Source: a virus
Taxonomy: Duplodnaviria > Heunggongvirae > Uroviricota > Caudoviricetes
DNA: 29,509 nucleotides
Strand: one strand, 5' to 3'
Virus record (IMG/VR): IMGVR_UViG_2718218398_000001
Location: 1 to 29,509 of that record
How positions within the stretch are numbered: position 1 is the stretch's first letter; each line of letters opens with the position of its first letter. Both the position numbers and the translations under genes were made by a program. Of the stretch, positions 2,357 through 21,316 are shown piece after piece. A model generated the notes under the pieces. That model had not been told where the DNA came from and searched no databases. It saw only the letters and a program-made list of their open reading frames with translations.

Positions 2357-2479
2357 ATGCAGGACTATTTTTTGGAGTCTTTGAAGCTCCAGCGCATTGA
2401 TTTTTTTCTTAAGCTTGTAGCGGCTAGTGAGTGTAGTGATGAAGAAAGGGGCTGGCTCTGCAGTGGGTTTCTGAATTGA
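2357..2479 (+). CDS. Hypothetical small protein (40 aa) between the SOS box and dinI-like gene
   Basis: ATG at 2357 preceded by a strong RBS AGGAGG (2349..2354). The six-frame ORF extends to 2255, but that start lies upstream of the LexA box. No recognisable motif. Confidence 0.35.
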   Translation: MQDYFLESLKLQRIDFFLKLVAASECSDEERGWLCSGFLN

Positions 2480-2554
2480 CTGATGAACTCATGGCAAAGA
2501 TCAGAACCCACGAATACAACCGCTCAATGGATGTCATCAGTTGAGGTGACTTTT

Positions 2555-4392: not shown

Positions 4393-5047
4393 TCATTTCG
4401 ATGATTGATCCAGATGTGTATATAACCATTGAAAGAGTTTTCTAATTTTTGTGATAGTATCTTTTAAATAATTTAAGGAGATTATTATATTATTTTCATT
4501 GTTTAATGAAAGAGTAGGTGTTTTATCAATGATATTTTTTAAGGCTACAGCTGTGCTCATTTTTTTAATGTCTCCATTAGCATGAACTATGCAATTCCTT
4601 ACTTTGTTAAACTCTGTCATGAATTGCCACTCTTGTGACAGGCCAAAGTTTATATCCATTAATTTTGTTAAATATCTTTTTGCTTTGTGGATGCCATCAC
4701 CATTAAAATCGGTTACTGATATATTGGTGTTTACAATCCTTTGACATATATTGCAATAGTCGTTTAGGTTGTGCTCTAAGCATGAGTATAAAGATACCAA
4801 AGCAGATTTATTAAAAAATATTTGGTTGTATGTTAACTAAGAAATCATATTGCTCTGAATAATAGTCTTCTAAGTAATTAATATAATCGTCAGGAGCATT
4901 CTTTTTTTCATCTTCATATGCTTTTTTTAATTCCGCTAAGTCAACTCTGTTTTGGCCGCCTGCTCCTAGGATATATTTTTCGAAATCATCAATCTGCGCT
5001 TCAAGTGAATATCTTGATAGCTGTGCGAAAAGTTTGTATTTACTCAT
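4393..5047 (-). CDS. HEPN-like protein, candidate abortive-infection RNase; split into two ORFs (4811..5047 and 4393..4800) by a 1-nt frame change at an A6/T6 run
   Basis: Minus-strand ORFs of 78 aa and 135 aa are contiguous; the upstream one ends at a TAATAA double stop directly after a T6 run (plus-strand A6 at 4814..4819). Removing one T fuses them into about 215 aa (...NIQPNIF-NKSALVSLYSC...). Canonical HEPN motif R-N-C-I-V-H (Rx4H) encoded at 4582..4599, followed by a predicted helix. Confidence 0.5.
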
Positions 5048-7163: not shown

Positions 7164-8195
7164 CTAATTCAATGAATAATCTTTGAAGGCTATTATTTTT
7201 TTCTTTAGCCAAATATTAATTTCTACAAGTCTTTTTTGTAAAGGAGTTAACTCATTTCGCACAAAAACGCAACTGGCTTTTTCTATATCCCCAAACCCCC
7301 CAACATTGTTTGGCATTATCCCCATCATCTGCGGCGGCACACGATGCGCCGCCATCATGTCATCCCGACTTACGTTCTTGATGTTAAGAAATTCATCCTT
7401 CGCCGCGACTTCTGACAATGGGATGATCTGAAGCCCGTCTTTTTTGCCGTTAGGCGAGTACATAAACAGGTTGCGGAAGTTGCCTGGACCTTTGGCACTT
7501 TTCATCGCGTTGCGGAGGTTGTTCACATCCTCCTGATTCTGCGCGGCGTCGGTCATGTACATGATGAAGCCTGCATGGCTGCCGTTGATGTAATACTTAC
7601 GGCGGAACAGCGTGGCGGACTCGTTGAGCAGGGCGGATGGAATGGCAGAAAGATAGCCGGGCAGGCCGTAGATCTCCTGGTTGATGTCCGGCTCCATCAG
7701 ATGAAAAATGCTGCCTTTCGTGAACTGATACGGCTGGGTTGTCATACCGTATTGCACAAACCAGTAGGTATCCAGGTCTAACCCACGTCGGGTGTATTTT
7801 GCCAGAGCAGGCTCAAGGGCGATAACTTCACCGAACCGGTTCGTGCGTTTCTCCAGGTAAGCGTTACCAAATACCAGATAGTCCTGCACAAAACGTGAAA
7901 AAGCCTGCTGGCTGAGAAGCGGGTGAGGGATGTAGGTACTGGTCAGAATGTTGCATTTCACCGCAATTGGTGAACTGTGATGCACGGCAGCGCGGAAGGT
8001 TCGCGCCAGTCCGTCAAAACTCACTGGCGGCTCATACCAGCGATCTGTCTGTACGCATTCTACATAGTCCAGCAGTTCGCGGCGGTCCAGAACAGGAACG
8101 GGATCGCCAAAGCTGAATGCTTCGGCTGAAGTCTGGCTTTTGTGCTGAATCTGGTTCGTCGACACAGCGCGGTTCTTCTTACTCTTTCCCATCAA
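7164..8195 (-). CDS. Q: Portal protein gpQ
   Basis: 343-aa product, the same size as P2 gpQ and collinear with it by recall. Lies directly upstream of terminase P on the same strand, with the 4-bp overlap typical of P2 Q/P. The last ~45 codons are encoded in AT-rich DNA. Confidence 0.85.
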   Translation of the reverse strand: MMGKSKKNRAVSTNQIQHKSQTSAEAFSFGDPVPVLDRRELLDYVECVQTDRWYEPPVSFDGLARTFRAAVHHSSPIAVKCNILTSTYIPHPLLSQQAFSRFVQDYLVFGNAYLEKRTNRFGEVIALEPALAKYTRRGLDLDTYWFVQYGMTTQPYQFTKGSIFHLMEPDINQEIYGLPGYLSAIPSALLNESATLFRRKYYINGSHAGFIMYMTDAAQNQEDVNNLRNAMKSAKGPGNFRNLFMYSPNGKKDGLQIIPLSEVAAKDEFLNIKNVSRDDMMAAHRVPPQMMGIMPNNVGGFGDIEKASCVFVRNELTPLQKRLVEINIWLKKKIIAFKDYSLN

Positions 8196-9959
8196 AAAAT
8201 CTCCACAATATTGCTGGTATTGGCGGACTCGCCCTGCAGCGGTTCGTTAAACAGTGCGTGCATTGTTGCCCACGCCAGATCGGCATGGCTGGCTTCTTCG
8301 CTGCGGCTGGCTTCATAGGTCGGGCGGTTGCCGCTGGCGGTGGTGGCGCGACGGATTGCCATAAATGACTGCGCTATGTCGGTGTGTCCGGCGTCAAACT
8401 CCAGACGGCGGTGACTGATAATGTCGTAGGCCTTGAGTACCAGGGCATTTTTAACGTTGGGGTTGTAGACAAACTCCCGGACGGCAGGAAAAAACGCTTT
8501 CACGTTCTCGTAAACCCCGTGACCGACGCCGGTTGAGTCGATACCGATGTATGTCACGTTGTACTGTTCAGTCAGTTTTTTGATGGCGTCAGCCTGGGCG
8601 CGGAAGTCCATCCCGCGCCACTGGTGACGCTCAAGAATGCGGAACTTACCGCCCGGCACGGCTGGCGGTGCCACCACCACGCATCCGGCGCTGTCGCCGT
8701 TCTGCGTACCTTTTGCCGGGTCATAACCGATCCACACTTCGCGCCAGCCAAACGGGCGCAGCGCCAGTGCATGAAAGTCGGTCCAGACTTCCCAGCTGTC
8801 CACCATGCACGCCTGTAGTTCGCTGAGCGGGAACACGGACGCGAGATCGTCCACAAACTCGCACATCAGCAGGTTCTGGTATTCGTCCGGGCTGTATTCC
8901 ATGCGCAACTGGTCAAGGTCGAACAGGTTACAGCCACCGCGCACCGCATCTTCCACGGTGACTATCTGGCGGTATTGCCCGTCAGCGCACAGCAGGCCGG
9001 GGGCCAGATTGCTGTGGGACAGATCAATGTCCACCTTGTCGGCTTTGTTGCGTCCACGGTTGAACAGCGCACCGGACCAGAACGGATAAGCACTGTGGGT
9101 CAGGCTGGATGGTGTGGAAAAAATAGGTCTGCCGCCATTTCTTGTGAATAGCCATACCGGAAGCCACTTTGCGTAGCTCCTGAAATTTCGGTATCCAGAA
9201 ATATTCATCCAGATACAGGTTGCCGTGATAACTCTGGGCCGTGCGGGCATTGGTGCCGAGGAAGTAAAGCGTGGCCCCGTTAGGAAGCACCATCGGATCG
9301 CCTTTCAGTTCCACATCCACTTCTTTGGCGAAGTCGATGATGTACTGCTTAAAGACGTGGGCCTGTGCCTTACTGGCGGAAAGGAAAATCTGGTTACGTC
9401 CGGTAAGCAGGGCGTCAATCAGGGCTTCACGGGCAAAGTAAAAGGTCGCGCCGATCTGGCGTGACTTCAGCAGGTTGCGGATGCGGTTGGTTTTTCCGGC
9501 TTCCCACCAGTGGCGCTGGTAGTTGAACATGGAGGAATGGAAGATTTCTTCCAGCTTCTCAATCTGTTCATCGGTGAAGACATTCTTTTCCGGCTGACGG
9601 CGCGGGCCTTTGTTGCGGTTGGCGACGTTAGGGTTTAAGTCAGCTTCGTTGCCGCCATTGTTAAACTTGCCGATCCGCGCGTGGCGCTCAGACTGGCGCG
9701 CCAGCAGGTCAATCTCTTTGAAATCTTTCCCTTCTTTGTGCTCCTTCATAATGAGCTGGCAGTAGCGTGCGGCGGTGGTGAGCTGCATCTGATCCAGCGG
9801 CCCATAGTCACCCCACTTGTCGCGTTTTTTCCAGCTGTGAACGGTTGCAACTTTCTCGCCCAGCATTTCAGCAATGCGGGCGACGCGGTATCCCTGAAAG
9901 TACAGCAGCATGGCCTGCCGACGGGGATCGAGATCTGCGGGTGTCAGTGTGGTGTTCAT
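8192..9959 (-). pseudogene. P: Terminase large (ATPase) subunit gpP, frame-disrupted
   Basis: Two overlapping minus-strand ORFs (9024..9959 and 8192..9250) together span 1768 bp, about 589 aa, the size of P2 gpP. One frame change in the 9024..9250 overlap. Confidence 0.85.
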
Positions 9960-10101: not shown

Positions 10102-10934
10102 ATGACAGTGAAAGCAAAGCGTTTTCGCATCGGGGTGGAAGGTGCCACCACCGATGGACGCGAAATCCAGCGAGAATGGCTGGAACAGATGGCAGCCAGC
10201 TACAACCCGGCGGTGTATACCGCGCTGATTAACCTTGAGCACATCAAGTCTTATCTGCCGGACAGCACCTTTAACCGCTACGCAAGGTGACGGCGCTGTT
10301 TGCTGAAGAAATCACGGAAGGTCCACTGGCAGGCAAGATGGCGCTGTATGCCGACGTTGAGCCAACGGAGTCCCTGGTGGAGCTGGTGAAAAAAGGCCAG
10401 AAATTATTCACCTCTATGGAAGTCAGCCCGAAGTTCGCTGATACGGGCAAAGCCTACCTGGTTGGCCTGGCTGCCACTGATGACCCTGCCAGTCTGGGCA
10501 CTGAAATGCTGACATTCAGCGCCAGTGCAGCCCATAACCCGCTGGCAAACCGCAAGCAGAACCCCGCCAATCTCTTTACCGCTGCAGAGGAAACGGTGAT
10601 CGAACTGGAAGAAGTCCAGGACGACAAACCGTCCCTGTTTGCCCGTGTCACGGCGCTGTTTACCAAAAAAGAGCAGTCCGATGATGCCCGGTTCTCTGAT
10701 GTGCATAAGGCCGTGGAACTGGTCGCCACTGAACAGCAAAACCTGAGTGCGCGCACCGAAAAATCCCTGTCTGAACAGGAAGAACGCCTGTCTGAGCTGG
10801 AGACTTCCCTGCAGGAGCAGCAAACCGCCTTTAACGAACTGGTGGATAAGCTGAGTCATGAAGACAGCCGCCAGGACTACCGCCAGCGTGCAACAGGCGG
10901 CAACGCCCCCGCTGACACTCTGACCAATTGCTGA
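10102..10934 (+). pseudogene. O: Capsid scaffolding protein gpO, one frame change near 10285
   Basis: ORFs 10102..10290 and 10287..10934. N-terminus FRIGVEGATTDGREI...INLEHIKSYLPD and C-terminus ...SDDARFSDVHKAV...ATGGNAPADTLTNC match P2 gpO. The frame break is consistent with loss of one G in a GG run (RYG). Confidence 0.85.
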
Positions 10935-10950: not shown

Positions 10951-12017
10951 ATGAAGAAGAATACCCGTTTTGCTTTTAACGCTTACCTGCAGCAGCTGGC
11001 GCGTCTGAACGGTGTGGCAGTTGAAGAACTGTCCAGCAAGTTCACTGTGGAGCCGTCTGTGCAGCAGACGCTGGAAGACCAGATCCAGCAGTCCGCCGCT
11101 TTCCTGACGCTGATTAACGTCACGCCCAGTGACTGAGCAGTCCGGTCAGCTGCTGGGGCTGGGTGTTGGCAGCACCATTGCCGGAACCACTGATACCACC
11201 GCGAAAGAGCGTGAACCTGTCCGATCCGACGCTGATGGTCGATGTGGAATACAAATGTGAACAGACCAACTTTTGACACGGTGCTGACCTACGCGAAGCT
11301 GGACCTGTGGGCGAAGTTTCAGGATTTCCAGGTGCGTATCCGTGACGGCCATCGTGAAACGTCAGGCACTGGACCGCATCATGATCGGCTTTAAACGGCG
11401 TGAAGCGTGCGAAAACCTCCAACCGTAGTGAAAACCCCGCTGCTGCAGGATGTGAACAAAGGCTGGCTGCAGAAAATCCGTGAGGATGCACCGGATCACG
11501 TCATGGGCAGCACCACCACGGGTGGTGAAACCACACCGGGCGCGGTGAAAGTCGGCAAAGGTGGAGAATATGCCAACCTGGACGCCGTGGTGATGGATGC
11601 TGTCAATGAGCTTATCGACGTGGTCTACCAGGACGATGACGATCTGGTGGTGATTTGCGGTCGTGAGCTGCTGTCTGACAAATATTTCCCGCTGGTCAAC
11701 AAAGAGCAGGAAAACAGTGAAAAACTGGCTGCCGATATGAATCATCAGTCAGAAACGCATGGGTGGCCTGCAGGCCGTGCGTGCGCCGTTCTTCCCGCCG
11801 AATGCGCTGCTGATCACCCCGTCTGGATAACCTGTCCATTTACTGGCAGGAGGACACCCGCCGCCGTTCGGTTATCGACAACCCGAAACGTGACCGGATT
11901 GAAAACTTTGAATCCGTTAACGAAGCCTATGTGGTTGAGGACTACCGCTGCGCAGCACTGGTGGAAAACATCCAGATTGGCGACTTCAGCGCCGCCGCCG
12001 CAGAAGCCGGAGCATAA
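10951..12017 (+). pseudogene. N: Major capsid protein gpN, multiply frame-disrupted
   Basis: N-terminus MKKNTRFAFNAYL...KFTVEPSVQQTL (10951..11136) and a later segment VKVGKGGEYANLDAVVMDAVNELIDVVYQDDDDLVVICGRELLSDKYFPLVNKEQENSEKLAAD match P2 gpN in different frames. At least four frame changes between 11136 and 11880. Stop at 12015..12017. Confidence 0.85.
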
Positions 12018-12020
12018 ACC

Positions 12021-12662
12021 ATGAGCCTGAGTCCCGCACGGCAGCATCGCCTGCGCGTTCAGGCTGAACAGGCCGCCCGCGAGGGCGGCAGTGTTCGCCA
12101 CGCGTCGGGCTATGACCTGATGCTGCTGCAACTGGCGGAAGACCGCCGCCGTCTCAAGGGCGTTCAGTCCACGGTCAAAAAAGCGGAAATCAAGGTGGAG
12201 CTGCTGCCGAAGTACGCCGCCTGGGCAGAGGGTGTCCTGGCTGCCGGAGGCGCTCAACAGGATGACGTGCTGATGTACGTGATGCTGTGGCGCATTGATG
12301 CCGGAGATTATGCCGGGGCGCTGGAGATCGGGCGTCATGCCCTGCGTCATGGCTGGGTGATGCCGCTGGGTAACCGCAACGTGCAGACCGTGCTGGCAGA
12401 GGAAATGGCAGATGCAGCCCAGAGCGCAATGCTTGCCGCCACCGGCTTTGATGCCGATCTGTTGCTGCAGACGCTGGAGCTGACAGACGGTATGGATATG
12501 CCGGACCAGTCACGGGCGCGTCTGCATAAAGCGATTGGCGCTGTCCTGAGTGAAAACAATCCGGCGTCCGCCCTTAATCATCTCAACCATGCGTTACAGC
12601 TCGATCCCCGCTGTGGCGTGAAAAAAAGACAAACAGCAGCTGGAGCGCAGACTGCGCAATGA
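12021..12662 (+). CDS. M: Terminase small (endonuclease) subunit gpM
   Basis: 213-aa product collinear with P2 gpM (…DDVLMYVMLWRIDAGDYAGALEIGRHALRHGW…). The extreme C-terminus may carry a 1-nt indel in the A-run at 12614..12620. Confidence 0.8.
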   Translation: MSLSPARQHRLRVQAEQAAREGGSVRHASGYDLMLLQLAEDRRRLKGVQSTVKKAEIKVELLPKYAAWAEGVLAAGGAQQDDVLMYVMLWRIDAGDYAGALEIGRHALRHGWVMPLGNRNVQTVLAEEMADAAQSAMLAATGFDADLLLQTLELTDGMDMPDQSRARLHKAIGAVLSENNPASALNHLNHALQLDPRCGVKKRQTAAGAQTAQ

Positions 12663-12767
12663 CAGCCGCTGACAGAACGTGCCCCCGCGCACGGGCGGCA
12701 CGGGGTGGCGAAAGGCACTGCCACATCAAAACCCCGTCCACCGCCCTCTATTTCAGGAGAAAGCAGC

Positions 12768-13232
12768 ATGAAGTTTGTTGCGCCAGAACAGGCACCGGAA
12801 CAGGCGGAAATCATCAGGAATACGCCGTTCTGGCCTGATGTGGACCTGTCGGAGTTTCGCAGTGTCATGCGCACTGACGGCACGGTGACGCAGCCGCGTT
12901 TAAAGCAGGTTGCGCTGTCGGCAATTTCGGAGGTCAACGCAGAGCTGTATGAGTTTCGCAGACGTCAGCAGATGCTGGGGTATGCGTCGCTGGCTGAGGT
13001 TCCGGCGGAACAGCTGGACGGCAAAAGTGAGCGCATCCAGCACTATTTCAACGCGGTTTACTGCTGGGCACGCGCCATGCTCAACGAACGATACCAGGAC
13101 TATGACGCCACGGCATCCGGTGTGAAGCGAGGCGAGGAACTGGCGGAATCCAGCGGTGATTTGTGGCGTGACGCCCGCTGGGCCATCAGCCGGGTGCAGG
13201 ATGCGCCGCACTGCACAGTGGAGCTTATCTGA
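12768..13232 (+). CDS. L: Head completion/stabilisation protein gpL
   Basis: ATG 12768 with RBS AGGAG. Product MKFVAPEQAPE... in conserved P2 position after M. The six-frame ORF start at 12705 is probably an upstream extension. Confidence 0.75.
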   Translation: MKFVAPEQAPEQAEIIRNTPFWPDVDLSEFRSVMRTDGTVTQPRLKQVALSAISEVNAELYEFRRRQQMLGYASLAEVPAEQLDGKSERIQHYFNAVYCWARAMLNERYQDYDATASGVKRGEELAESSGDLWRDARWAISRVQDAPHCTVELI

Positions 13233-13435
13233 TGAAAGTGCGTGCGCATCAGTATGACACGGTGGACGCGCTTTGCTGGCGTCATTACGGGCGCACGCAG
13301 GGTGTCACGGAGCAGGTACTGAAGGCAAATCCGGGGCTTGCCGAATATGGCCCCTTTTTACCTCACGGGCTGCAGGTGGAGCTGCCGGACATTCCGACCA
13401 CCACCACCGTGCAGACCGTCCAGCTATGGGACTGA
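13232..13435 (+). CDS. X: Tail protein gpX
   Basis: 67-aa product MKVRAHQYDTVDALCWRHYGRT..., the size and sequence pattern of P2 gpX. Its start overlaps the L stop (ATGA). Confidence 0.8.
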   Translation: MKVRAHQYDTVDALCWRHYGRTQGVTEQVLKANPGLAEYGPFLPHGLQVELPDIPTTTTVQTVQLWD

Positions 13436-13438
13436 ATT

Positions 13439-13654
13439 ATGACGCTTGAGCGAATCAGCGCCTTTATCACGTACTGCATCGCCGTTGTGCTGGCCTGGCT
13501 GGGCGATTTGTCCATCAAGGATGCCTCAACGCTGGGCGGCCTGATGATTGGTGTGCTGATGCTGGCTATCAACTGGTACTACAAACACAAAGCCTACCAG
13601 CTTCTGCGCGACGGGCAGATCTCGCGGGAGGACTATGAATCCATCAATCGTTAA
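13439..13654 (+). CDS. Holin (small two-TMD, pinholin-like)
   Basis: 71 aa with two hydrophobic helices and a charged C-terminus. Immediately upstream of, and overlapping, a SAR-type endolysin. Confidence 0.7.
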   Translation: MTLERISAFITYCIAVVLAWLGDLSIKDASTLGGLMIGVLMLAINWYYKHKAYQLLRDGQISREDYESINR

Positions 13655-14147
13655 ACGCTGCCTTGTCGGGGCCGTGCTGGCTATTGCTGCCACGCTGCCG
13701 GGTTTTCAGCAGCTTCACACCTCCGTGGAGGGGCTGAAACTGATTGCAGATTACGAAGGCTGTCGTCTGCAGCCGTATCAGTGCAGCGCGGGCGTCTGGA
13801 CCGACGGCATTGGTAACACGTCAGGCGTCATTCCCGGCAAAACCATTACGGAACGACAGGCAGCTGAAGGGCTGATCTCCAACGTGCTACGAGTGGAGCG
13901 GGCGATGGAAAGGTGTGTGAAGCAACAGCCGCCGCAGAAGGTGTATGACGCTACGGTGTCGTTTGCCTTCAACGTGGGGACGGGCAATGCCTGTAGTTCC
14001 ACGCTGGTGAAATTGCTCAATCAGCGGCGCTGGGCGGATGCATGCCGACAGTTGCCGCGCTGGGTTTATGTGAAAGGTGTTTTTAATCAGGGGCTGGATA
14101 ACCGCCGTGCGCGGGAGATGGCCTGGTGTTTACAGGGAGCAAACTGA
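13635..14147 (+). CDS. K: Endolysin, GH24 (T4-type) lysozyme with N-terminal SAR signal-anchor
   Basis: Catalytic spacing E-x8-C-x5-T (DYEGCRLQPYQCSAGVWT). G/A-rich weakly hydrophobic N-terminal segment CLVGAVLAIAATLPG, typical of SAR endolysins. Confidence 0.8.
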   Translation: MNPSIVKRCLVGAVLAIAATLPGFQQLHTSVEGLKLIADYEGCRLQPYQCSAGVWTDGIGNTSGVIPGKTITERQAAEGLISNVLRVERAMERCVKQQPPQKVYDATVSFAFNVGTGNACSSTLVKLLNQRRWADACRQLPRWVYVKGVFNQGLDNRRAREMAWCLQGAN

Positions 14148-14148
14148 A

Positions 14149-14526
14149 ATGAAAAAGAAATTAATCAGCGGACTGTTTCTGATGTTATGGATGGCGCTGT
14201 TAATCGCAGCAATGGTGTATCCGCAGGGGATTTTTCCGGTACTGGCAGCGTCCGGCGTTTGGGTAGCCTGTTTGCTGACATGGGCGGTAATTCCGGTAGC
14301 ACTGGCTGCGTTAATTAAGAATGGCCCGCTCTGGCAGGAGTTAAGGGCATCTTTGCTGAAGACAATTACCCGAAAAGAAAACGTATTTACCAGTTGGGTG
14401 ATGCGATTGCTGATTGTTGTAAGTCTCGCCTGGACGGGGTGGGCTATTACCCTGGTCTTTTATCTACTGACCGTTATTGCCTTCTGGATCACCCGTAATC
14501 AGATGGCGCAACAGGTAGCAGCATGA
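14149..14526 (+). CDS. lysA: LysA-like membrane protein (lysis timing/antiholin-like)
   Basis: ATG 14149 with RBS GGGAG. 125-aa product with about four predicted TM helices, in the P2 lysA position. Confidence 0.6.
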   Translation: MKKKLISGLFLMLWMALLIAAMVYPQGIFPVLAASGVWVACLLTWAVIPVALAALIKNGPLWQELRASLLKTITRKENVFTSWVMRLLIVVSLAWTGWAITLVFYLLTVIAFWITRNQMAQQVAA

Positions 14527-14951
14527 ACCGGTTGCTGCTGGTTGTGCTGACGTTATTACTGGCGGCGCTGGGCTGGCAGACGTGGCGGCTGGCTGATGCC
14601 AGCCAGACCATCAGCACGCAGGCAGACGAGCTGCAGAGCAAAAGCCAGGCACTGGCAAAGAGCAATAGCCAGCTTATCAGCCTGTCCATTCTGACTGAAA
14701 CCAATAACCGGGAGCAGGCGCGGCTCTATGCCGAAGCAGAACAGACCAGCACGCTGCTGAGACAACGACAACACCGGATCGAGGAACTGAAACGTGAGAA
14801 CGAGGATTTACGCCGCTGGGCTGATACTCCTTTGCCTGCTGACATTATCCGGCTGCGGAAACGTCCGGCACTCACCGGAGGTATGGCTTACCGTCAGTGG
14901 TTGTCCGCGAGTGACGCCGTGTCGGCTGGATCAGGCAACGCCGCGCACTAA
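14523..14951 (+). CDS. lysB: LysB, Rz-like inner-membrane spanin (i-spanin)
   Basis: N-terminal TMD (LLLVVLTLLLAALGW) followed by a coiled-coil periplasmic domain. P2 lysB position. Confidence 0.75.
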   Translation: MNRLLLVVLTLLLAALGWQTWRLADASQTISTQADELQSKSQALAKSNSQLISLSILTETNNREQARLYAEAEQTSTLLRQRQHRIEELKRENEDLRRWADTPLPADIIRLRKRPALTGGMAYRQWLSASDAVSAGSGNAAH

Positions 14952-15084
14952 CGGTGATCTGAACGCGTTGCTGGATGAAACGGAGGCCGCCTGGGCGGTC
15001 TGTGCAGACAAAGTGGACATGATTATTGCGTGTCAGGAGCGAAACAGTGAACAAACCACAATCCCTGCGCCACGCCCTCAATAA
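14794..15084 (+). CDS. lysC: LysC, Rz1-like outer-membrane lipoprotein spanin (o-spanin), overlapping lysB in the +1 frame
   Basis: Signal peptide with lipobox LTLSGC, in a different frame from lysB and extending past its stop, which is the P2 lysB/lysC architecture. Confidence 0.7.
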   Translation: MRTRIYAAGLILLCLLTLSGCGNVRHSPEVWLTVSGCPRVTPCRLDQATPRTNGDLNALLDETEAAWAVCADKVDMIIACQERNSEQTTIPAPRPQ

Positions 15085-15478
15085 AGCGGTGCCTTATGTC
15101 CGCAATAACCCGGACAAACTGCATCTGTTTGTGGATAACGGTTCGCTGGTTGCCACGGGGGCCAGCTCCATGTCGTGGGAGTACCGTTACACACTGAACG
15201 CGGTGATTGAGGATTTCAGCGGCGACCAGAATCTGCTGATGGCCCCGGTTTTGCTGTGGCTGAGGGATAACCAGCCCGATGCCATCAATAACCCGGCGTT
15301 ACGGGAAAAGCTATTCACCTTTGAGGTGGATATTCTGCGCAACGATGTCTGTGATATCAGCCTGAACCTGCAACTGACGGAACGTGTGCTGGTCAGCACT
15401 GACGGCAGTGTGTCGAGCGTTGAAGCTATAGCGGAACCTGATGCACCTGAAGAAATGTGGACGGTGAAACGTGGCTGA
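15047..15478 (+). CDS. R: Tail completion protein gpR
   Basis: GTG 15047 with RBS AGGAG (15035..15039). NKPQSLRHALNKAVPYVRNNPDKLHLFVDNGS... matches P2 gpR. Confidence 0.8.
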   Translation: MNKPQSLRHALNKAVPYVRNNPDKLHLFVDNGSLVATGASSMSWEYRYTLNAVIEDFSGDQNLLMAPVLLWLRDNQPDAINNPALREKLFTFEVDILRNDVCDISLNLQLTERVLVSTDGSVSSVEAIAEPDAPEEMWTVKRG

Positions 15479-15917
15479 ACTGCAGAAGGTGGACGACTGG
15501 CTGAGTGCCTTGCTGGCGAATCTGGAACCAGCCTCGAGAAGCCGCATGATGCGCCAGCTGGCGCAGGAACTTCGCCGGACACAGCAGCAGAATATCAGGA
15601 TGCAGCGCAACCCTGACGGCAGCGGCTATGAACCGCGACGGGTAACAGCACGCAGTAAAAAAGGCCGTATCAAACGTCAGATGTTTGCAAAGCTGCGCAC
15701 CACAAAATACCTGAAAACTGCCGCCAGCACCGACTCTGCCAGCGTGCAGTTTGAAGGCAAGGTGCAGCGCATTGCCCGCGTTCACCATTACGGCCTGCGA
15801 GATCGCGTCAGTCGTAAGGGACCGGAGGTTCGTTACGCAGAGCGTCGCCTTCTGGGTGTAAATGATGATGTTGAGGCAATGACCCGCGACATGATTCTGC
15901 AATGGCTGGCGGGGTGA
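15471..15917 (+). CDS. S: Tail completion protein gpS
   Basis: GTG start overlapping the R stop. 148-aa product in conserved P2 order. Confidence 0.75.
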   Translation: MAELQKVDDWLSALLANLEPASRSRMMRQLAQELRRTQQQNIRMQRNPDGSGYEPRRVTARSKKGRIKRQMFAKLRTTKYLKTAASTDSASVQFEGKVQRIARVHHYGLRDRVSRKGPEVRYAERRLLGVNDDVEAMTRDMILQWLAG

Positions 15918-15921
15918 TCTT

Positions 15922-15939
15922 TGTATCAGCACTGATACA
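15922..15939. promoter_or_regulatory. Ogr-type late promoter element upstream of V (TGT-N12-ACA, near-perfect palindrome)
   Basis: ttgtatcag cac tgatacaa, with TGT at 15922..15924 and ACA at 15937..15939, in the S-V intergenic region. Confidence 0.45.
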
Positions 15940-15985
15940 AGTTGCAGCACTGCCGCCTTTCTTCCCCTGATGGCAACCTTTCCCT

Positions 15986-16564
15986 ATGAACGCACAATTA
16001 ACCGAAATCATGCGCCTTATCACCAACCTGATCCGCACAGGGGTAGTCACCGAAGTGGACAGGGAAAACTGGCTTTGCCGGGTGAAAACGGGCGACCTTG
16101 AAACCAACTGGATTAACTGGCTGACGCTGCGCGCGGGTAATGCCCGGACATGGTGGCGACCATCGGAAGGTGAGCAGGTGGTGCTACTGAGTCTGGGCGG
16201 CAATCTGGAAACAGCCTTTGCGCTGCCCGCCATCTATTCGAATCAGTTCGCGCCACCGTCGACGTCGGCAGACGCCTGCGTGACAGAACATCCTGACGGT
16301 GGCTGGTTTGAATACGAACCTGCCACCGGGCGTTGGTATGTAAGGGGCATCAAATCAATGGTCATTGAGGCCGCTGACAACATCACCATGAAAACCAGTG
16401 AGTTTGTACTGGAGGCTGACCACACGCGCATTAACAGCGAAGTGGTGATCAATGGTGGCGTTACCCAGGGCGGCGGAGTGATGAGTTCTAACGGGATTGT
16501 GGTTGATGCACATCAGCATACTGGCGTCCTGAAAGGCGGCGACACAACCGGAGGCCCGGTATGA
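15986..16564 (+). CDS. V: Baseplate spike/assembly protein gpV
   Basis: 192-aa product in conserved P2 order, with the glycine-rich C-terminus typical of gpV. Confidence 0.8.
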   Translation: MNAQLTEIMRLITNLIRTGVVTEVDRENWLCRVKTGDLETNWINWLTLRAGNARTWWRPSEGEQVVLLSLGGNLETAFALPAIYSNQFAPPSTSADACVTEHPDGGWFEYEPATGRWYVRGIKSMVIEAADNITMKTSEFVLEADHTRINSEVVINGGVTQGGGVMSSNGIVVDAHQHTGVLKGGDTTGGPV

Positions 16565-16920
16565 CGCTTTATAGCGGGATGAACAATACCAGCGGTAAAG
16601 CCATTACTGATATTGACCATCTGCGCCAGTCGGTGCGGGACATTTTGTTGACGCCGCAGGGTAGCCGCATTGCCCGTCGGGAATATGGTTCCCTGCTGTC
16701 GGCACTGATAGACCAGCCACAAAATCCGGCATTACGCCTGCAGGTCATGTCGGCAGTGTATGTGGCGCTGAGTCGCTGGGAGCCACGACTGACGCTGGAT
16801 TCCATCACCATCAACAGCAACTTTGACGGTTCTATGGTGGTGGAGCTGACCGGGCGGCGGAATAACGGTGTGCCTGTGTCCCTTTCCGTATCAACAGGAG
16901 CAGAGAATGGCAATGATTGA
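16561..16920 (+). CDS. W: Baseplate protein gpW (gp25/GPW family)
   Basis: 119-aa product. Position and size match P2 gpW. Confidence 0.75.
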   Translation: MTLYSGMNNTSGKAITDIDHLRQSVRDILLTPQGSRIARREYGSLLSALIDQPQNPALRLQVMSAVYVALSRWEPRLTLDSITINSNFDGSMVVELTGRRNNGVPVSLSVSTGAENGND

Positions 16921-17815
16921 CCTTTCGCAGTTGCCTGCACCGCAGATTGTGGATGTGCCGGACTTTGAGACGCTGCTTGCCGAACGCAAGGCAGAATTTG
17001 TGGCGCTTCATCCGAAAGATGAGCAGGAAGCCGTGATCCGCACGCTGGAACTGGAATCTGAACCCGTCACTAAATTGTTGCAGGAGAACGCTTACCGTGA
17101 GTTGCTTCTGCGCCAGCGCATTAACGAAGCCGCGCAGGCGGTGATGGTGGCTTACGCGATGGGCGGCGATCTTGACCAGCTCGCTGCCAACTACAACGTG
17201 ACACGCCTGACGGTGACGCCTGCTGATAATGATGCTGTGCCGCCCGTTGCAGCTGTGATGGAAAGCGATGAAGCGTTACGCCTGCGTGTGCCTGCAGCCT
17301 TTGAAGGGCTTTCTGTTGCGGGGCCAACTGCAGCTTATGAATTTCATGCCCGAAGCGCCGACGGTAGGGTGGCGGATGCCAGTGCAACCAGCCCGGCACC
17401 TGCAGAGGTGGTGCTGACTGTCCTTAGCCGCGAAGGCGATGGAACTGCAGAAAAAGACCTGCTGGACGTGGTGGAAAAAGCTCTGAACAGTGAGAACGTC
17501 CGCCCGGTGGCTGACCGTCTGACGGTTCGCAGCGCAGAAATCATCCCGTATCGCGTGGAAGCCACCATTTTTCTCTATCCGGGACCGGAAGCAGAGCCGG
17601 TAATGGCAGCGGCAAAAGCCAGCCTGCAGAAGTACATCGCCAGTCAGACGCGTCTTGGTCGGGATATTCGCCGTAGCGCCATCTTTGCCGCCCTGCATGT
17701 TGAGGGTGTGCAGCGTGTGGAGCTGGCTTCTCCTCTGGCGGATGTGGTCCTGAACAAAACACAGGCGGCATCATGTACGCAGTGGAGCGTAACCAACGGA
17801 GGAACGGATGAATAG
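16907..17815 (+). CDS. J: Baseplate assembly protein gpJ
   Basis: ATG 16907 with RBS CAGGAG. MAMIDLSQLPAPQIVDVPDFETLLAERKA... is collinear with P2 gpJ (MPIIDLNQLPAP...). Confidence 0.85.
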   Translation: MAMIDLSQLPAPQIVDVPDFETLLAERKAEFVALHPKDEQEAVIRTLELESEPVTKLLQENAYRELLLRQRINEAAQAVMVAYAMGGDLDQLAANYNVTRLTVTPADNDAVPPVAAVMESDEALRLRVPAAFEGLSVAGPTAAYEFHARSADGRVADASATSPAPAEVVLTVLSREGDGTAEKDLLDVVEKALNSENVRPVADRLTVRSAEIIPYRVEATIFLYPGPEAEPVMAAAKASLQKYIASQTRLGRDIRRSAIFAALHVEGVQRVELASPLADVVLNKTQAASCTQWSVTNGGTDE

Positions 17816-18413
17816 TCTGCTGCCACCGGGTTCAACTTCACTGGAGCGCCGACTGGCGCAAACCTGTAGCGGGATTTCTGATCTGCAGGTGCCGCTGCGT
17901 GACTTGTGGAATCCGGCTACCTGTCCGGTCAGCTTCCTGCCTTATCTCGCCTGGGCGTTCTCTGTGGATCGCTGGGACGAGGGCTGGACAGAAAGCGTCA
18001 AACGCCAGGTAGTGAAGGATGCTTTTTATATTCATCAGCATAAAGGAACCACCAGTGCCGTGCGGCGGGTGGTGGAACCGTTCGGATTCCTGATCCGCAT
18101 TATTGAGTGGTGGCAGACCGGAGAGGCTCCGGGCACGTTTCGCCTGGATATCGGCGTGCAGGACCAGGGCATCACTGAAGATACCTATCTGGAACTTGAG
18201 CGACTGATAAGCGATGCCAAACCATGTAGCCGCCACATGATCGGCATGTCCATCAATCTGCAGACCAGCGGCCCGCATTGGGTGGGAGCCGCCAGCTATC
18301 TTGGCGAAGAAATCACGATCTATCCGTATATCAACGAAACAATTATTTCTGGCGGCACCGCGCATGAAGGCGGGGCGGTCCATGTTATTGACACAATGAG
18401 AGTGAATCCATGA
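17808..18413 (+). CDS. I: Baseplate assembly protein gpI
   Basis: 201-aa product in conserved P2 order. Confidence 0.8.
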   Translation: MNSLLPPGSTSLERRLAQTCSGISDLQVPLRDLWNPATCPVSFLPYLAWAFSVDRWDEGWTESVKRQVVKDAFYIHQHKGTTSAVRRVVEPFGFLIRIIEWWQTGEAPGTFRLDIGVQDQGITEDTYLELERLISDAKPCSRHMIGMSINLQTSGPHWVGAASYLGEEITIYPYINETIISGGTAHEGGAVHVIDTMRVNP

Positions 18414-19792
18414 GCACAAAATTTTATACCCTGCTGACGGATATTGGCGCGGCGAAACTTGCCAGCGCCGCCGCGCTCGGTGTGCCGCTAAAAATTACCC
18501 ATATGGCGGTGGGCGATGGTGGCGGAACATTGCCGACGCCGGACGCAAAGCAGAGTGCACTGGTAAATGAGAAACGTCGGGCTGCGCTGAATATGCTCTA
18601 TATCGACCCACAGAACAGCAGCCAGATTATTGCTGAACAGGTGATCCCTGAAAACGAGGGCGGTTGGTGGATACGTGAAGTGGGCCTGTTTGATGAGTCA
18701 GGGGCATTGATTGCCGTGGGCAACTGCCCGGAAAGCTATAAGCCGCAACTGGCTGAAGGCAGCGGGCGTACCCAGACCGTGCGCATGGTGCTGATTACCA
18801 GCAGCACGGACAATATCACCCTGAAAATCGACCCTGCTGTAGTGCTGGCAACCCGCAAGTATGTGGATGACAAGGCACTGGAGCTGAAGGTGTACGCGGA
18901 TGATCAGATGGCAAAACATCTTGCCGCACCGGACCCGCATTCACAGTATGCAGCCAAAGAAAGTCCTACGTTTACCGGGACACCCAAAGCGCCAACGCCA
19001 GCGACGGGGAATAACACCACGCAGGTTGCGACCACCGCATTTGTTCAGGCGGCACTGACGGCTCTTATTAATGATGCGCCAGCCACGCTGGACACGCTGA
19101 AAGAAATAGCCGTAGCCATTAACAATGATCCGAAATTCAGTACCACCATTAACAATGCGCTGGCACTGAAAGCGCCGCTGTCGAGTCCGGCACTCACCGG
19201 AACGCCAACCGCACCGACTGCGGCACAGTCGGTCAACAATACACAGATTGCCACCACGGCATTTGTGAAATCGGCGATTGCGGCAATGGTGGGTTCTGCA
19301 CCTGCGGCACTGGATACACTGAACGAACTGGCGGCGGCGCTGGGGAATGACCCGAACTTTGCCACGACAATGCTTAATGCACTGGCAGGTAAACAACCGC
19401 TGGACAATACGCTGACTAATTTGAGTGGAAAGGATGTTGCTGGTCTTCTCGCATACCTTGGTTTGGGAGAAGCGGCAAAACGGAATGTGGGAACAGGGGA
19501 AAATCAGATACCTGATATGTCAGCTTATTCATCAGGATCTGGCTGGCAAAAATTGCCTGATGGTTCAATTGAACAGTGGGGAAGAATTAATTTCCCGAAT
19601 AACGCCGCGGCGGTATCTACAAATGTGACTTTCACCATTCCTTTTACGCAGGAGCCAGACGTAGTGATTGTATATGACGGCGGTTTTGGTGGTGGGAATA
19701 TGTGGGGCGCAACTAACTGGACGAAAACAGGTTTCGTTGCTCATTGTAACTATGGCTTTGAAGGTGGAGCCTTCTACGCGAAAGGGCGTTAA
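18410..19792 (+). CDS. H: Tail fibre protein gpH (constant N-terminal part plus invertible C-terminal receptor-binding part)
   Basis: 460-aa product with a conserved N-terminus (MSTKFYTLLTDIGAAKLA...). The C-terminal region after the LGLGE crossover point (about 19459) lies inside the invertible segment. Confidence 0.85.
   Translation: MSTKFYTLLTDIGAAKLASAAALGVPLKITHMAVGDGGGTLPTPDAKQSALVNEKRRAALNMLYIDPQNSSQIIAEQVIPENEGGWWIREVGLFDESGALIAVGNCPESYKPQLAEGSGRTQTVRMVLITSSTDNITLKIDPAVVLATRKYVDDKALELKVYADDQMAKHLAAPDPHSQYAAKESPTFTGTPKAPTPATGNNTTQVATTAFVQAALTALINDAPATLDTLKEIAVAINNDPKFSTTINNALALKAPLSSPALTGTPTAPTAAQSVNNTQIATTAFVKSAIAAMVGSAPAALDTLNELAAALGNDPNFATTMLNALAGKQPLDNTLTNLSGKDVAGLLAYLGLGEAAKRNVGTGENQIPDMSAYSSGSGWQKLPDGSIEQWGRINFPNNAAAVSTNVTFTIPFTQEPDVVIVYDGGFGGGNMWGATNWTKTGFVAHCNYGFEGGAFYAKGR
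18962..19402 (+). repeat. Tandem protein-coding repeat in H (two units of about 73 aa, phage tail-fibre repeat)
   Basis: SPTFTGTPKAPTPATGNNTTQVATTAFVQAAL...DTLKEIAVAINNDPKFSTTINNALALKAPL is followed by SSPALTGTPTAPTAAQSVNNTQIATTAFVKSAI...DTLNELAAALGNDPNFATTMLNALAGKQPL. Confidence 0.7.
19446..19471. other. Inversion crossover site (hix/gix/cix-like, 26 bp) inside H
   Basis: ttctcgcatacc TT ggtttgggagaa: 12-bp imperfect inverted half-sites around a central TT. 21 of 26 positions match the reverse complement of the site at 21304..21329, including a perfect 14-bp block. Confidence 0.75.
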
Positions 19793-19794
19793 TT

Positions 19795-20235
19795 ATGAAA
19801 TATTTGTATGTTGATAATCTGGCGTACCCTTATGCCCTCCAGTCTGTTTACGCTGCAAAAGGCCAATGGCCCGAAGGTAAAGGCGTGGATATAGACGAAG
19901 CTATTTTCAGGGAATATTTCCATGATACGCCGCCTGACGGTAAGTACAGAATTACCGGAGACGATGGAATGCCAGCATGGGCAGATGTTCCACCGCCAAC
20001 ACGTGAAGAACAAATTGCATCAGCCGAAACTAAAAAGCAGCAATTGATTAATCAGGCCAACGATTATATGAACAGTAGACAATGGGCTGGTAAAGCGGCT
20101 ATTGGTCGTCTGAAAGGTGAGGAACTGGCGCAATATAATTTGTGGCTGGATTATCTGGACGCACTGGAGCTGGTCGATACTTCCAGTGCACCAGATATTG
20201 AATGGCCTACTCCTCCGGCAGTTCAGGCCAGATGA
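19795..20235 (+). CDS. Tail fibre assembly chaperone (Tfa, gpG-like), orientation-specific copy
   Basis: 146-aa product with the conserved Tfa C-terminus (...LWLDYLDALELVDTSSAPDIEWP). Immediately follows H. Confidence 0.8.
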   Translation: MKYLYVDNLAYPYALQSVYAAKGQWPEGKGVDIDEAIFREYFHDTPPDGKYRITGDDGMPAWADVPPPTREEQIASAETKKQQLINQANDYMNSRQWAGKAAIGRLKGEELAQYNLWLDYLDALELVDTSSAPDIEWPTPPAVQAR

Positions 20236-20809
20236 CATCCGGCGCGGTGCTGATATCTGTTGCCGTCACCGCGTCAATGTAATCCAGCACAGCGTTAAGC
20301 CGGGTTGTTTCTGCCTGCGTCAGTTTCCGCCCGGCCTGTAATTTCAGTTGAATCAGACTAATGGAAGCCATTGCAGTATCAATCAGTGACTGACGCTGTG
20401 CTTCTGCCGCGTCTACTGCGGCGCGATGCTGTGCCTCAGTATCGGTCACCCATTTCTCACCATCCCATTTATCGTATGGCGTTAATGGGGCGATAGTGGT
20501 TGTATTTTCGGGGTAATCACCCGGAGTTGTGATTTCTTTGGTGTCTCCCGTTTCGGTGTTATAGACGATTTCACCGCGATGGTCTGGCACATATTCCCAT
20601 GAGTTTAAATCTGCCGAACGGCAGATTGCATAACCAGCCTTATGTATACCAGGTTCATCCAGACAGGAATATGCCGGGATACCAACACCAACGGCAAGAT
20701 ATTCATTTGAAGTGGAAATATATTCCCGAGTTTCACCATCATAGCTATAGACGGTAATATTCCCCGCCTTCGTGGCAATAAGCTCGCTATTTAATACAGC
20801 GTTATCCAT
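20207..20809 (-). CDS. Alternative tail fibre assembly chaperone (Tfa') for the inverted orientation
   Basis: 200-aa minus-strand product with a Tfa-type C-terminus (...LNAVLDYIDAVTATDISTAPDVIWPELPEE), converging on and overlapping the plus-strand tfa by 29 bp. Confidence 0.75.
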   Translation of the reverse strand: MDNAVLNSELIATKAGNITVYSYDGETREYISTSNEYLAVGVGIPAYSCLDEPGIHKAGYAICRSADLNSWEYVPDHRGEIVYNTETGDTKEITTPGDYPENTTTIAPLTPYDKWDGEKWVTDTEAQHRAAVDAAEAQRQSLIDTAMASISLIQLKLQAGRKLTQAETTRLNAVLDYIDAVTATDISTAPDVIWPELPEE

Positions 20810-21316
20810 TATGCAGCTCTCACAATATAATTAAATGACGTATTACGTGGTCGTACTGATATCCATGCACTATAAAAACCGTCTTCTGCTGTTCTCTGCG
20901 TTCCCGTAATGGAGTTATCAGACGAAGCTGGAACATAGTTACTGCTGTCGCCAGCTTTAGAATTAGCAGGTATCCCGCTTGTTTGTACTTTATCGGCGGA
21001 AGCAAATGCTATCCCCACCTTGACAGAGGTTGTTGTATCAACCCCGTAATAATCCTGTAACGCTGTACGAATAAAAGTTGCATCCTGACCACTGAGTAGT
21101 GATCGTCCACTGTCTACACCGCGTCCATCATCCCAGCCACGAATAAACTCACCGCGTAAATCAGGCAATTTATTTGTCGGGTAAGCCTTTGCCAGTTCCG
21201 GGTATTCTTCAGCAGAAAAAGCTGCACCATTGCATTTCAACCAGCCTGTCGGTGGTGTAGCTGAAGGCCACGGAACAGGCACACCAACCGGTAATGCTGA
21301 ACCTTCTCCCAAACCA
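20809..21316 (-). CDS. Alternative tail fibre C-terminal (receptor-binding) segment, promoterless, expressed only after inversion
   Basis: The minus-strand ORF encodes ...LGLGEGSALPVGVPVPWP..., sharing the LGLGE junction with H at the crossover site. Its stop overlaps the Tfa' start (TAATG). The six-frame ORF extends to 21357, but sequence beyond the site is outside the segment. Confidence 0.7.

What the first reader, a model, noticed from the sequence alone, without database searches (positions are those of the whole stretch)
10951..12017. Pervasive single-nucleotide frame disruptions in essential phage genes, some at mononucleotide runs
A, P, O, N, FI, E, T, D and dam each need one or more 1-nt corrections, while the encoded peptides remain highly conserved. 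Where I could resolve them (a C4-versus-C5 run in E near 23890, a GG run in O near 10285, the A6 run at 4814..4819), the breaks sit in homopolymers. This pattern fits homopolymer sequencing or consensus errors better than slow pseudogenisation, which would also accumulate substitutions and stops. The major capsid gene N (span given) is the clearest case, with four or more breaks.
Basis: seen in the sequence. Interest (0 to 1): 0.45.

Follow-up and report, generated by a model that had tools for sequence, protein, structure and literature searches.

The report
Assembly errors in a duplicate prophage contig
The broken phage genes are not decaying: the window is an error-rich, redundant extra contig of an E. 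coli ST131 genome assembly whose chromosome carries the same P2-like prophage with these genes intact, so the frameshifts are consensus errors and of no biological interest.

Summary
The window is a P2-like (Peduoviridae) phage genome with 51 indels that no other sequence shares: 37 single-base insertions, 11 single-base deletions and 3 short deletions. They break A, dam, P, O, N (8 insertions), M, FI, E, T (18), D and two small genes. Removing them restores every reading frame with no internal stops.

The window is a whole 29,509-bp GenBank record of "Escherichia coli O25b:H4" (proteins ANK07212–ANK07252). The 5.29-Mb chromosome of the same assembly encodes the indel-corrected T (ANK06258.1, including a window-specific substitution), M and HEPN-like protein (ANK06230.1) exactly.

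Indels outnumber private substitutions 51 to 13 (about 35 to 2 in the late genes). 36 of 37 insertions copy a neighbouring base. The events cluster in about 1%-error zones, with a clean 10.4-kb stretch.

Two extras:
- The contig holds the Pin-invertible tail-fibre segment in the opposite orientation to the chromosome. The in-silico flipped H is exactly ANK06250.1.
- It is closed through a non-homologous D→dam junction that removes the lysogeny module.

It is most likely a minority-read "haplotig". Verdict: artefact, low interest.

The parts
10951..12017 (+). Major capsid gene N (P2 family), broken by 8 single-base insertions at 11125(C), 11221(C), 11271(T), 11347(G), 11393(A), 11435(C), 11740(A) and 11817(C)
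   Evidence: The corrected translation is identical to the TUM9803 N protein WP_000742510.1. The peptide walks frames 0,1,2,0,1,2,0,1,2.
24277..27368 (+). Tape-measure gene T, with 16 single-base insertions (24888-26653) and 2 single-base deletions (26584, 27141)
   Evidence: The corrected 1025-aa protein, including the window-specific M602, is exactly ANK06258.1 on the 5,289,898-bp chromosome.
23847..24150 (+). Tail assembly gene E: deletion of C at 23887 (C4 vs C5) and insertions of C at 24024 and 24030. The natural E/E' slippery site TTTTTTG at 24105 is intact.
22094..23267 (+). Tail sheath gene FI: insertion of A at 23009 (A4 vs A3)
   Evidence: The truncated 308-aa product is ANK07246.1.
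12021..12672 (+). Small terminase gene M: insertion of A at 12621 (A7 vs A6).
   Evidence: The corrected M is UniProt A0A192CKJ0_ECO25, found on the 5.29-Mb record.
10102..10934 (+). Scaffold gene O: deletion of G at 10282 (G vs GG)
   Evidence: The truncated 62-aa product is ANK07222.1. The corrected O carries an O25b:H4 name.
8192..9959 (-). Terminase ATPase gene P: insertion of A at 9118 (A6 vs A5)
4393..5047 (-). HEPN-like cargo gene (217 aa): insertion of A in the run 4813-4818 (A6 vs A5)
   Evidence: The corrected protein is exactly ANK06230.1 on the chromosome.
2357..2544 (+). 62-aa hypothetical gene: deletion of G after 2445
1..2203 (+). Replication gene A; it starts at 29302 and runs across the record's start. 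Nine events: 29474, 170, 193, 277 (5-nt deletion), 288, 303 (2-nt deletion), 310, 379 and 968.
   Evidence: Reference-guided correction gives an 804-aa ORF with no stops, but that exact protein is not on record.
28573..29305 (+). dam methylase gene, 5'-truncated at the junction. Events: insertion of T at 28681, deletion of AAA at 29203, insertion of T at 29231, deletion of G at 29249.
27847..28572 (+). Gene D, 3'-truncated at the junction. Deletions of G at 28228 and 28304, and of C at 28572.
28569..28576 (.). Non-homologous D|dam junction with at most 4 nt of microhomology (ACGG). It closes the record into a circle that lacks the D 3' end, ogr, att, int, CI, the early genes and the dam 5' end.
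   Evidence: No complete E. coli genome has this junction as a contiguous match.
12622..23008 (.). 10,387-bp stretch (the 10,388-bp gap between the events at 12621 and 23009), covering genes L through FI, with no private indel
   Evidence: 12.2 insertions would be expected from the run-length census.
19446..21329 (.). Pin-invertible tail-fibre segment, with 26-bp Din-type sites at 19446-19471 and 21304-21329 and cores TT/AA. It lies in the opposite orientation to the chromosomal copy.
   Evidence: The in-silico flipped H (518 aa) is ANK06250.1, whereas the window's H (460 aa) is ANK07242.1 only.
21379..21951 (+). pin serine invertase, intact; identical in both copies (ANK06253.1 and ANK07245.1)

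Best explanation
The window is a complete 29,509-bp GenBank record: an extra 'replicon' of an Escherichia coli O25b:H4 (ST131) genome assembly. It duplicates a P2-like prophage that is also present, intact, in that assembly's 5.29-Mb chromosome. The 51 frame-breaking indels are consensus errors left in stretches of this redundant contig that had little or no usable read support. They are not mutations. The contig probably exists because a minority of cells or reads carried the Pin-invertible tail-fibre segment in the other orientation, so the assembler could not merge those reads into the chromosome path and built a second, thinly covered copy. Its closure through a D-to-dam junction is most likely a chimeric or mis-joined end.

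Shown: the indels are private to the window; removing them restores all genes; the chromosome of the same assembly encodes the corrected proteins exactly; the two copies differ in segment orientation.

Inferred: low depth or failed polishing as the cause; a long-read single-molecule platform; the inversion as the reason for the separate contig; the artefactual nature of the junction.
For: (a) Source. The truncated products are deposited as ANK07212-ANK07252 on a contig of exactly 29,509 bp.

(b) Intact twin in the same assembly. Corrected T = ANK06258.1, with the window-specific M602, and only 4 contigs hold this sequence. Corrected M = A0A192CKJ0_ECO25 on the 5,289,898-bp record. Corrected HEPN-like protein = ANK06230.1, and corrected O carries an O25b:H4 name. 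Intact genes come in accession pairs: ANK06229/07216, 06231/07218, 06251/07243 and 06253/07245. From pin to T there are 5 accession steps on the chromosome (FI, FII, E, E', T as single CDSs) against 7 in this record.

(c) Reverting the indels gives 0 internal stops and 0-1 aa differences from the TUM9803 prophage in Q, P, O, N, M, L, FI, FII, E, T and U.

(d) The indels are private. All references in the six-locus panel agree against the window. Ten further loci show the same 24-25 gaps whether they differ by 4 or 155 substitutions. A 30-mer spanning one indel is absent from viral, genome and metagenome contig collections.

(e) Error signature. 37 insertions vs 11 single deletions (p=2e-4). 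36 of 37 insertions copy a neighbour (p=2e-12). The rate rises with run length. There are only 13 private substitutions, 2 of them in the late genes.

(f) Clustering that composition cannot explain: 8 observed vs 0.8 expected in N, 16 vs 2.0 in T, and 0 vs 12.2 in the clean stretch.

(g) Orientation difference of the invertible segment.

(h) Residual indel errors in long-read bacterial assemblies, and their persistence in repeated regions after polishing, are documented (PMC8812927, PMC12007338).
Against: No reads were available, so coverage and the platform are unverified. The link to chromosome CP015085 rests on the organism name only. The chromosome's DNA could not be fetched, so the comparison with the intact copy is at protein level and covers T, M, O, H, the HEPN-like protein and the intact genes; N, P, FI and E are too widespread for their accessions to be listed. 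Corrected A was not found as an exact protein, so the dam/A zone may hold further errors or real differences. Why the errors fall in these particular zones is not explained: the zone around the unique junction is error-rich, while 970-9117, far from the invertible segment, is nearly clean. The C+A vs G+T asymmetry of inserted bases (28 vs 9, p=0.0014) is also unexplained.
Confidence: 0.93

Rival explanations
1. The indels are real: the window is a genuinely decayed, defective P2-like element (a cryptic prophage or defective circle) that has accumulated about 50 frameshift mutations.
For: Many essential genes are broken, and the lysogeny module, ogr and part of D are missing. This superficially resembles a remnant. 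Real P2 remnants do exist, for example dam-A'|'D-ogr in FDAARGOS_1337.
Against: Decay produces substitutions, nonsense codons, larger deletions and IS insertions. Here there are 51 indels against 13 private substitutions, no nonsense substitution, and corrected proteins identical to those of the same strain's chromosomal copy. None of the indels is shared by any aligned relative, and none of 5,426 complete E. coli genomes holds a closer match than TUM9803. No known process yields insertions that almost always copy a neighbour, at about 1% density in patches, without any substitutions.
Confidence: 0.02
2. The indels are errors, but the molecule is real: a subpopulation carries a circular or tandemly amplified dam-to-D segment of the prophage, formed by illegitimate recombination, with the tail-fibre segment flipped. 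The assembler reported it as a circle.
For: The record closes seamlessly (L001 11275 to 11276) with no terminal overlap. The junction has short microhomology, typical of illegitimate recombination. The flipped segment shows that the contig derives from reads distinct from those that built the chromosome. Other P2-like sequences are deposited as separate 'plasmids' of 15-45 kb.
Against: The junction sits inside an error-dense zone (16 events across 28228-29509 and 1-970), as expected for thinly covered or chimeric contig ends. No other genome has this junction. The circle lacks att/int, so it is not a normal excision product. Chimeric reads and spurious small contigs are common in early long-read assemblies (own knowledge).
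Confidence: 0.12
3. The frame changes are decoded: programmed ribosomal frameshifting or transcriptional slippage restores the proteins.
For: P2-like phages do use one programmed -1 frameshift (E/E+E'), and its TTTTTTG site is present at 24105.
Against: The natural site is untouched and identical to the references. The 51 events are at non-slippery, non-conserved sites, absent from every homologue. Eight +1 events in one capsid gene would abolish its expression.
Confidence: 0.005
4. A frameshift-specific mutational process (an intercalating mutagen, a mismatch-repair defect or an error-prone polymerase) hit this copy.
For: +1 duplications of a neighbouring base are the classic slippage or acridine signature. 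The clustering could mimic patches of error-prone synthesis.
Against: A mismatch-repair defect targets long runs and also raises transitions. Here 25 of 37 insertions are at runs of 1-2 bases, and there are almost no substitutions. The chromosomal twin in the same culture is unaffected.
Confidence: 0.005

Closest known systems
Residual indel (homopolymer-length) errors in long-read bacterial assemblies, persisting in repeats after polishing (PMC8812927; gene-fragmenting errors, PMC12007338)
   Same: Single-base indels fragment otherwise conserved genes. Indels far outnumber substitutions. The rate rises with run length. The affected sequence is a repeat within its assembly (a second copy of a chromosomal prophage), which is where polishing is known to fail.
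   Different: Many errors are 1-to-2 base doublings rather than long-homopolymer miscounts. Insertions dominate. The errors are confined to patches. The platform of this record is not known to me.
Redundant or spurious small contigs ('haplotigs') built from minority structural variants in an isolate assembly
   Same: The contig duplicates a chromosomal region and differs from it by a structural variant (the flipped Pin-invertible segment). Its consensus quality is poor.
   Different: It was deposited as a closed 29.5-kb molecule with an extra non-homologous junction. Read depth could not be checked.
P2-like temperate phages (Peduoviridae; closest: the prophage at rcdA/ybjL in E. coli TUM9803, NZ_CP135671.1; phages 500465-1 and Cartapus)
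   Same: Full synteny across A ... Q P | O N M L X Y K lysABC R S V W J I H G | pin | FI FII E E' T U D. The late genes are 99.3-99.4% identical including gaps. The corrected proteins are identical or differ by one residue.
   Different: It lacks ogr, att, int, CI and the early genes. The dam-A module is mosaic (93-94% to TUM9803, 98-99% to E189). It carries 51 private indels.
Din-family (Pin/Gin/Cin) invertible tail-fibre switches
   Same: A serine invertase sits next to a 1.86-kb segment flanked by 26-bp inverted sites. Inversion swaps the C-terminus of H (460 aa vs 518 aa) and the assembly chaperone. Both orientations are seen within one assembly.
   Different: Nothing unusual. This is an ordinary member, noted only because it explains the duplicate contig.

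Membership tests
Sequencing/consensus artefact | The differences are private to the one record and absent from all relatives | tested here: met
   Panel of 6 loci, 10 further loci and exact 30-mer scans of three collections
Sequencing/consensus artefact | Reverting the differences restores intact, conserved ORFs | tested here: met
   11 genes, 0 stops, 0-1 aa differences; A, hyp217, hyp1
Sequencing/consensus artefact | Indel-dominated spectrum with run-length dependence and few substitutions | tested here: met
   51 indels vs 13 private substitutions; per-run rate from 0.08% (run 1) to about 3% (runs 5-6)
Sequencing/consensus artefact | An independent copy of the same locus from the same sample lacks the differences | tested here: met
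   ANK06258.1 (T), ANK06230.1 (HEPN-like) and A0A192CKJ0 (M) on the 5.29-Mb record equal the corrected proteins. This is protein level only.
Sequencing/consensus artefact | Raw reads contradict the consensus, or depth is low at the sites | not testable with these tools
   No read data are accessible
Decayed cryptic prophage (pseudogenisation) | Substitutions, nonsense codons, larger deletions or IS insertions accompany the frameshifts | tested here: not met
   No nonsense substitution; 2 private substitutions in about 23 kb of late genes
Decayed cryptic prophage (pseudogenisation) | The lesions are inherited, so related strains share them | tested here: not met
   None is shared by any aligned reference locus, and no closer match exists among 5,426 complete E. 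coli genomes
Programmed frameshifting / recoding | A slippery site conserved at the same position in homologues | tested here: not met
   Only the canonical E/E' TTTTTTG at 24105 is conserved. All 51 indel sites are unique to the window.
P2-like phage (Peduoviridae) | P2 gene order and hallmark proteins (Phage_cap_P2, GPO, GPA, gpD, gpU, etc.) | tested here: met
   Synteny and annotation transfer from NZ_CP135671.1 and NC_049342.1; Pfam labels on related loci
P2-like phage (Peduoviridae) | A complete genome with the lysogeny module (int, C/CI, cox), ogr and att | tested here: not met
   The window jumps from D (L001 38545) to dam (L001 10338)
Din-family invertible segment | An adjacent serine invertase, inverted 26-bp crossover sites, and alternative H C-termini seen in both orientations | tested here: met
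   (H = ANK07242.1; flipped H = ANK06250.1)

The most novel reading that the evidence does not exclude
The 29.5-kb circle might be a real molecule in a subpopulation of this ST131 isolate: a replicating or tandemly amplified dam-to-D derivative of the prophage. It would have been made by illegitimate recombination, would keep the A replication gene, the region where cos is expected and all the late genes, and would have lost immunity, integration and ogr. Its tail-fibre switch would be in the alternative orientation. The indels would still be sequencing errors laid on top of it.
Probability: 0.1. Interest if true: 0.3.

Novelty: not a real feature. Interest (0 to 1): 0.05.

Why it matters
It matters only for data hygiene. 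This record feeds about 40 truncated 'proteins' into public databases (for example a 61-aa 'major capsid protein', ANK07224.1, which also has a RefSeq WP_ identifier). It could be misread as a plasmid, a defective phage or a pseudogenised prophage. Any scan for pseudogenes, recoding or phage decay should exclude it. It is also a clean worked example of how to separate artefact from decay without reads, using three checks: the ratio of private indels to private substitutions, neighbour-copying insertions, and an intact twin in the same assembly.

Tried and rejected
- Exact 30-mer scans of viral, genome and metagenome contigs for an indel-bearing sequence found nothing.
- The record is not in the local phage collection, the RefSeq E. 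coli collection or PLSDB. NZ_CP015085.1 is not in the local collections either.
- The look-up of encoding contigs could not return the 29.5-kb record or the 5.29-Mb chromosome. A direct DNA comparison of the two copies was therefore impossible and was replaced by exact-protein look-ups.
- JJ1887 (PMC4866839) was considered as the source and rejected, because its chromosome size differs.
- Searches for the assembly's sequencing description failed.
- Composition, homopolymer density and GC were tested as the cause of the clustering and rejected.
- Proximity to Dam/Dcm methylation motifs was tested as the cause. There was no meaningful enrichment: 2 vs 1.6 expected and 3 vs 1.1 expected.
- Corrected A protein (two variants) was not found in the collection.
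- The idea that polishing quality simply decays with distance from the invertible segment was considered. It does not fit, because 970-9117 is clean and the junction zone is dirty.

Full report
**What the window is**

The ORF map and megablast show a P2-like (Peduoviridae) phage genome. The closest complete-genome match is the prophage between rcdA and ybjL in E. coli TUM9803 (NZ_CP135671.1, fetched as L001). blastn against L001 gives four pieces:

| Window | L001 | Identity |
|---|---|---|
| 5267-20765 | 15269-30757 | 99.4% |
| 21113-28576 | 31095-38545 | 99.3% |
| 1-2798 | 11276-14079 | 94% |
| 28573-29509 | 10338-11275 | 93% |

Two structural points follow.
- The end of the window continues exactly into its start (L001 11275 to 11276), with no terminal overlap. 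The record is therefore a closed circle.
- At 28572/28573 the sequence jumps from inside gene D to inside dam. This omits the D 3' end, ogr, att, int, CI and the early genes.

**Checking the observation**

A base-by-base comparison, gene mapping and a six-reference panel give 51 indel events at which the references agree against the window: 37 single-base insertions, 11 single-base deletions, and deletions of 5, 2 and 3 bases.

Events per gene:

| Gene | Events |
|---|---|
| A | 9 |
| dam | 4 |
| 62-aa gene | 1 |
| HEPN-like gene | 1 |
| P | 1 |
| O | 1 |
| N | 8 |
| M | 1 |
| FI | 1 |
| E | 3 |
| T | 18 |
| D | 3 |

N (10951-12017) has insertions at 11125, 11221, 11271, 11347, 11393, 11435, 11740 and 11817. 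Its peptide moves through frames 0,1,2,0,1,2,0,1,2.

Ten more independent loci show the same 24-25 gaps across 21.3-28.6 kb, whether they differ from the window by 4 or by 155 substitutions.

**Signature of the events**

- Insertions outnumber single deletions 37 to 11 (p=2e-4).
- 36 of 37 insertions copy an adjacent base (44% expected, p=2e-12).
- The true run lengths at insertion sites are 1 (13 sites), 2 (12), 3 (6), 4 (1), 5 (3) and 6 (1). Most events are therefore not in long homopolymers, although the per-run rate rises about 40-fold from runs of 1 to runs of 5-6.
- Inserted bases are strand-asymmetric: C+A 28 against G+T 9 (p=0.0014).
- Only 13 substitutions are private to the window. 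Ten of them lie in the mosaic A/early region (window 1-2700), one in dam and two in the late genes.
- The events are patchy: about 1 per 100 bp in 11125-11817, 23887-26653, and 28228-29509 plus 1-970. There are none in 12622-23008 (10.4 kb, p about 2e-8), and the variance/mean per kb is 4.55 (p=4e-15).
- Run-length composition predicts 12.2 insertions in the clean stretch (0 observed), 0.8 in the N patch (8 observed) and 2.0 in the T patch (16 observed). Sequence content therefore does not explain the patches.
- Dam/Dcm motifs are not meaningfully enriched near the events.

**Reverting the events**

Removing the indels while keeping the window's substitutions restores Q, P, O, N, M, L, FI, FII, E, T and U. 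There are no internal stops and 0-1 residue differences from TUM9803. Reference-guided correction also restores A (804 aa), the HEPN-like protein (217 aa) and the 62-aa protein. The natural E/E' slippery site TTTTTTG at 24105 is intact and is not among the events.

**Source of the window**

Exact look-up of the truncated products shows that they are deposited proteins ANK07212.1-ANK07252.1 of "Escherichia coli O25b:H4", on a contig of exactly 29,509 bp. The window is thus a whole GenBank record.

The KAP NTPase is also ANK06231.1, on a 5,289,898-bp record of the same accession series. Further look-ups show:
- The corrected T, with the window-specific M602, is exactly ANK06258.1 on that chromosome. 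Only four contigs hold this sequence.
- The corrected M is A0A192CKJ0_ECO25 on the same record.
- The corrected HEPN-like protein is ANK06230.1.
- The corrected O carries an O25b:H4 name.
- Intact genes occur as accession pairs: 06229/07216, 06231/07218, 06251/07243 and 06253/07245.
- From pin to T there are 5 accession steps on the chromosome, which fits one CDS each for FI, FII, E, E' and T. In this record there are 7.

So the same assembly holds an intact twin of this phage. The window differs from that twin, where testable, by indels only.

CP015085 is described in the literature as the chromosome of the ST131 strain named "O25b:H4" from Saudi Arabia, 2014 (PMC10866875). I infer, from the organism name only, that it is the parent assembly.

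**Why a second copy exists**

The window's H tail-fibre protein (460 aa) is ANK07242.1 only. The window has a Din-type invertible segment, with 26-bp sites at 19446-19471 and 21304-21329 and cores TT/AA, next to pin. Inverting 19458-21317 in silico yields a 518-aa H that is exactly ANK06250.1 on the chromosome.

The two copies therefore differ in the orientation of the switch. I infer that reads from the minority orientation could not be merged into the chromosome and seeded a thin, redundant contig. As a near-exact repeat of the chromosome, this contig was poorly covered or poorly polished. Persistence of such errors in repeats is documented (PMC8812927), as is gene fragmentation by long-read indels (PMC12007338).

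The D|dam junction has at most 4 nt of microhomology, lies inside an error-dense zone, and is found in no other genome. A chimeric join is the simplest reading, but a real aberrant circle or tandem amplification is not excluded.

**Rivals**

- Real decay is rejected. There is no substitution load, there are no nonsense codons, no lesion is shared with relatives, and the twin in the same culture is intact.
- Recoding is rejected. None of the sites is conserved or slippery.
- A frameshift-specific mutagenic process is rejected. Most sites are runs of 1-2 bases, there are no accompanying transitions, and the twin is unaffected.

**Limits**

- No reads were available, so depth and platform are unknown.
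- The chromosome's DNA could not be retrieved, so the comparison with the twin is at protein level.
- Corrected A was not found, so the dam/A zone may contain further errors or real differences.
- The placement of the error patches and the base asymmetry remain unexplained.

**Verdict**

The feature is an assembly and consensus artefact in a redundant contig. It is not biology, and its interest is low.

Noticed in passing
window 28569-28576 (junction at 28572/28573), and 29509->1: The record is a closed circle. It joins gene D directly to dam through a non-homologous junction with at most 4 nt of microhomology (ACGG). About 6 kb is missing: the D 3' end, ogr, att, int, CI, the early genes and the dam 5' end. 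No complete E. coli genome has this join.
   Followed up: partly
window 19446-21329 (sites 19446-19471 and 21304-21329); pin at 21379-21951: The Pin-invertible tail-fibre segment lies in the opposite orientation to the chromosomal copy in the same assembly. The window's H (460 aa) is ANK07242.1, and the in-silico flipped H (518 aa) is ANK06250.1. This is direct evidence of phase heterogeneity in the sequenced culture.
   Followed up: yes
window 3277-7129: Cargo genes lie between the DinI-like gene and portal gene Q: a 288-aa hypothetical protein, a HEPN-like 217-aa protein (weak PADLOC RTasHEPN hit, 1e-5) and a KAP-family P-loop NTPase (PADLOC PDC-S49, 2e-25). This looks like a candidate anti-phage defence island at a variable P2 locus. 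TUM9803 and other relatives carry different cargo there.
   Followed up: partly
window 28573-29509 and 1-2798: The dam-A replication module is mosaic. It is 93-94% identical to TUM9803, whose late genes are about 99.9% identical apart from the indels, but 98-99% identical to E. coli E189 and PEC422. Recombination between P2-like phages is the likely cause.
   Followed up: partly
all 37 insertion sites in the window: The inserted bases are strand-asymmetric on the + strand: C 15, A 13, T 5, G 4 (C+A vs G+T, p=0.0014). Deleted bases are mostly G or C. This is unexplained. It may reflect consensus built from reads of one orientation.
   Followed up: no
PLSDB records NZ_CP019257.1, NZ_CP019246.1, NZ_CP019275.1, NZ_CP019274.1, NZ_CP019279.1: Other E. 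coli assemblies also list 15-45 kb 'plasmids' made of P2-like phage sequence. They may be the same kind of redundant or excised-phage contig.
   Followed up: no
L002 (NZ_CP070026.1, FDAARGOS_1337) 3732-5345: This is a genuine P2-like remnant at the ssrA locus, in which a 5' fragment of A is fused to a 3' fragment of D, so all the late genes are deleted. It is a real deletion derivative with roughly the reverse content of the window.
   Followed up: no
L005 (NZ_CM168005.1, PEC422) 14617-15642 and 29519-30690: One of the reference prophages has a portal gene with an internal stop and a frameshifted tail sheath gene, both flagged by PGAP. Single lesions of this kind do occur in other deposited prophages.
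   Followed up: no
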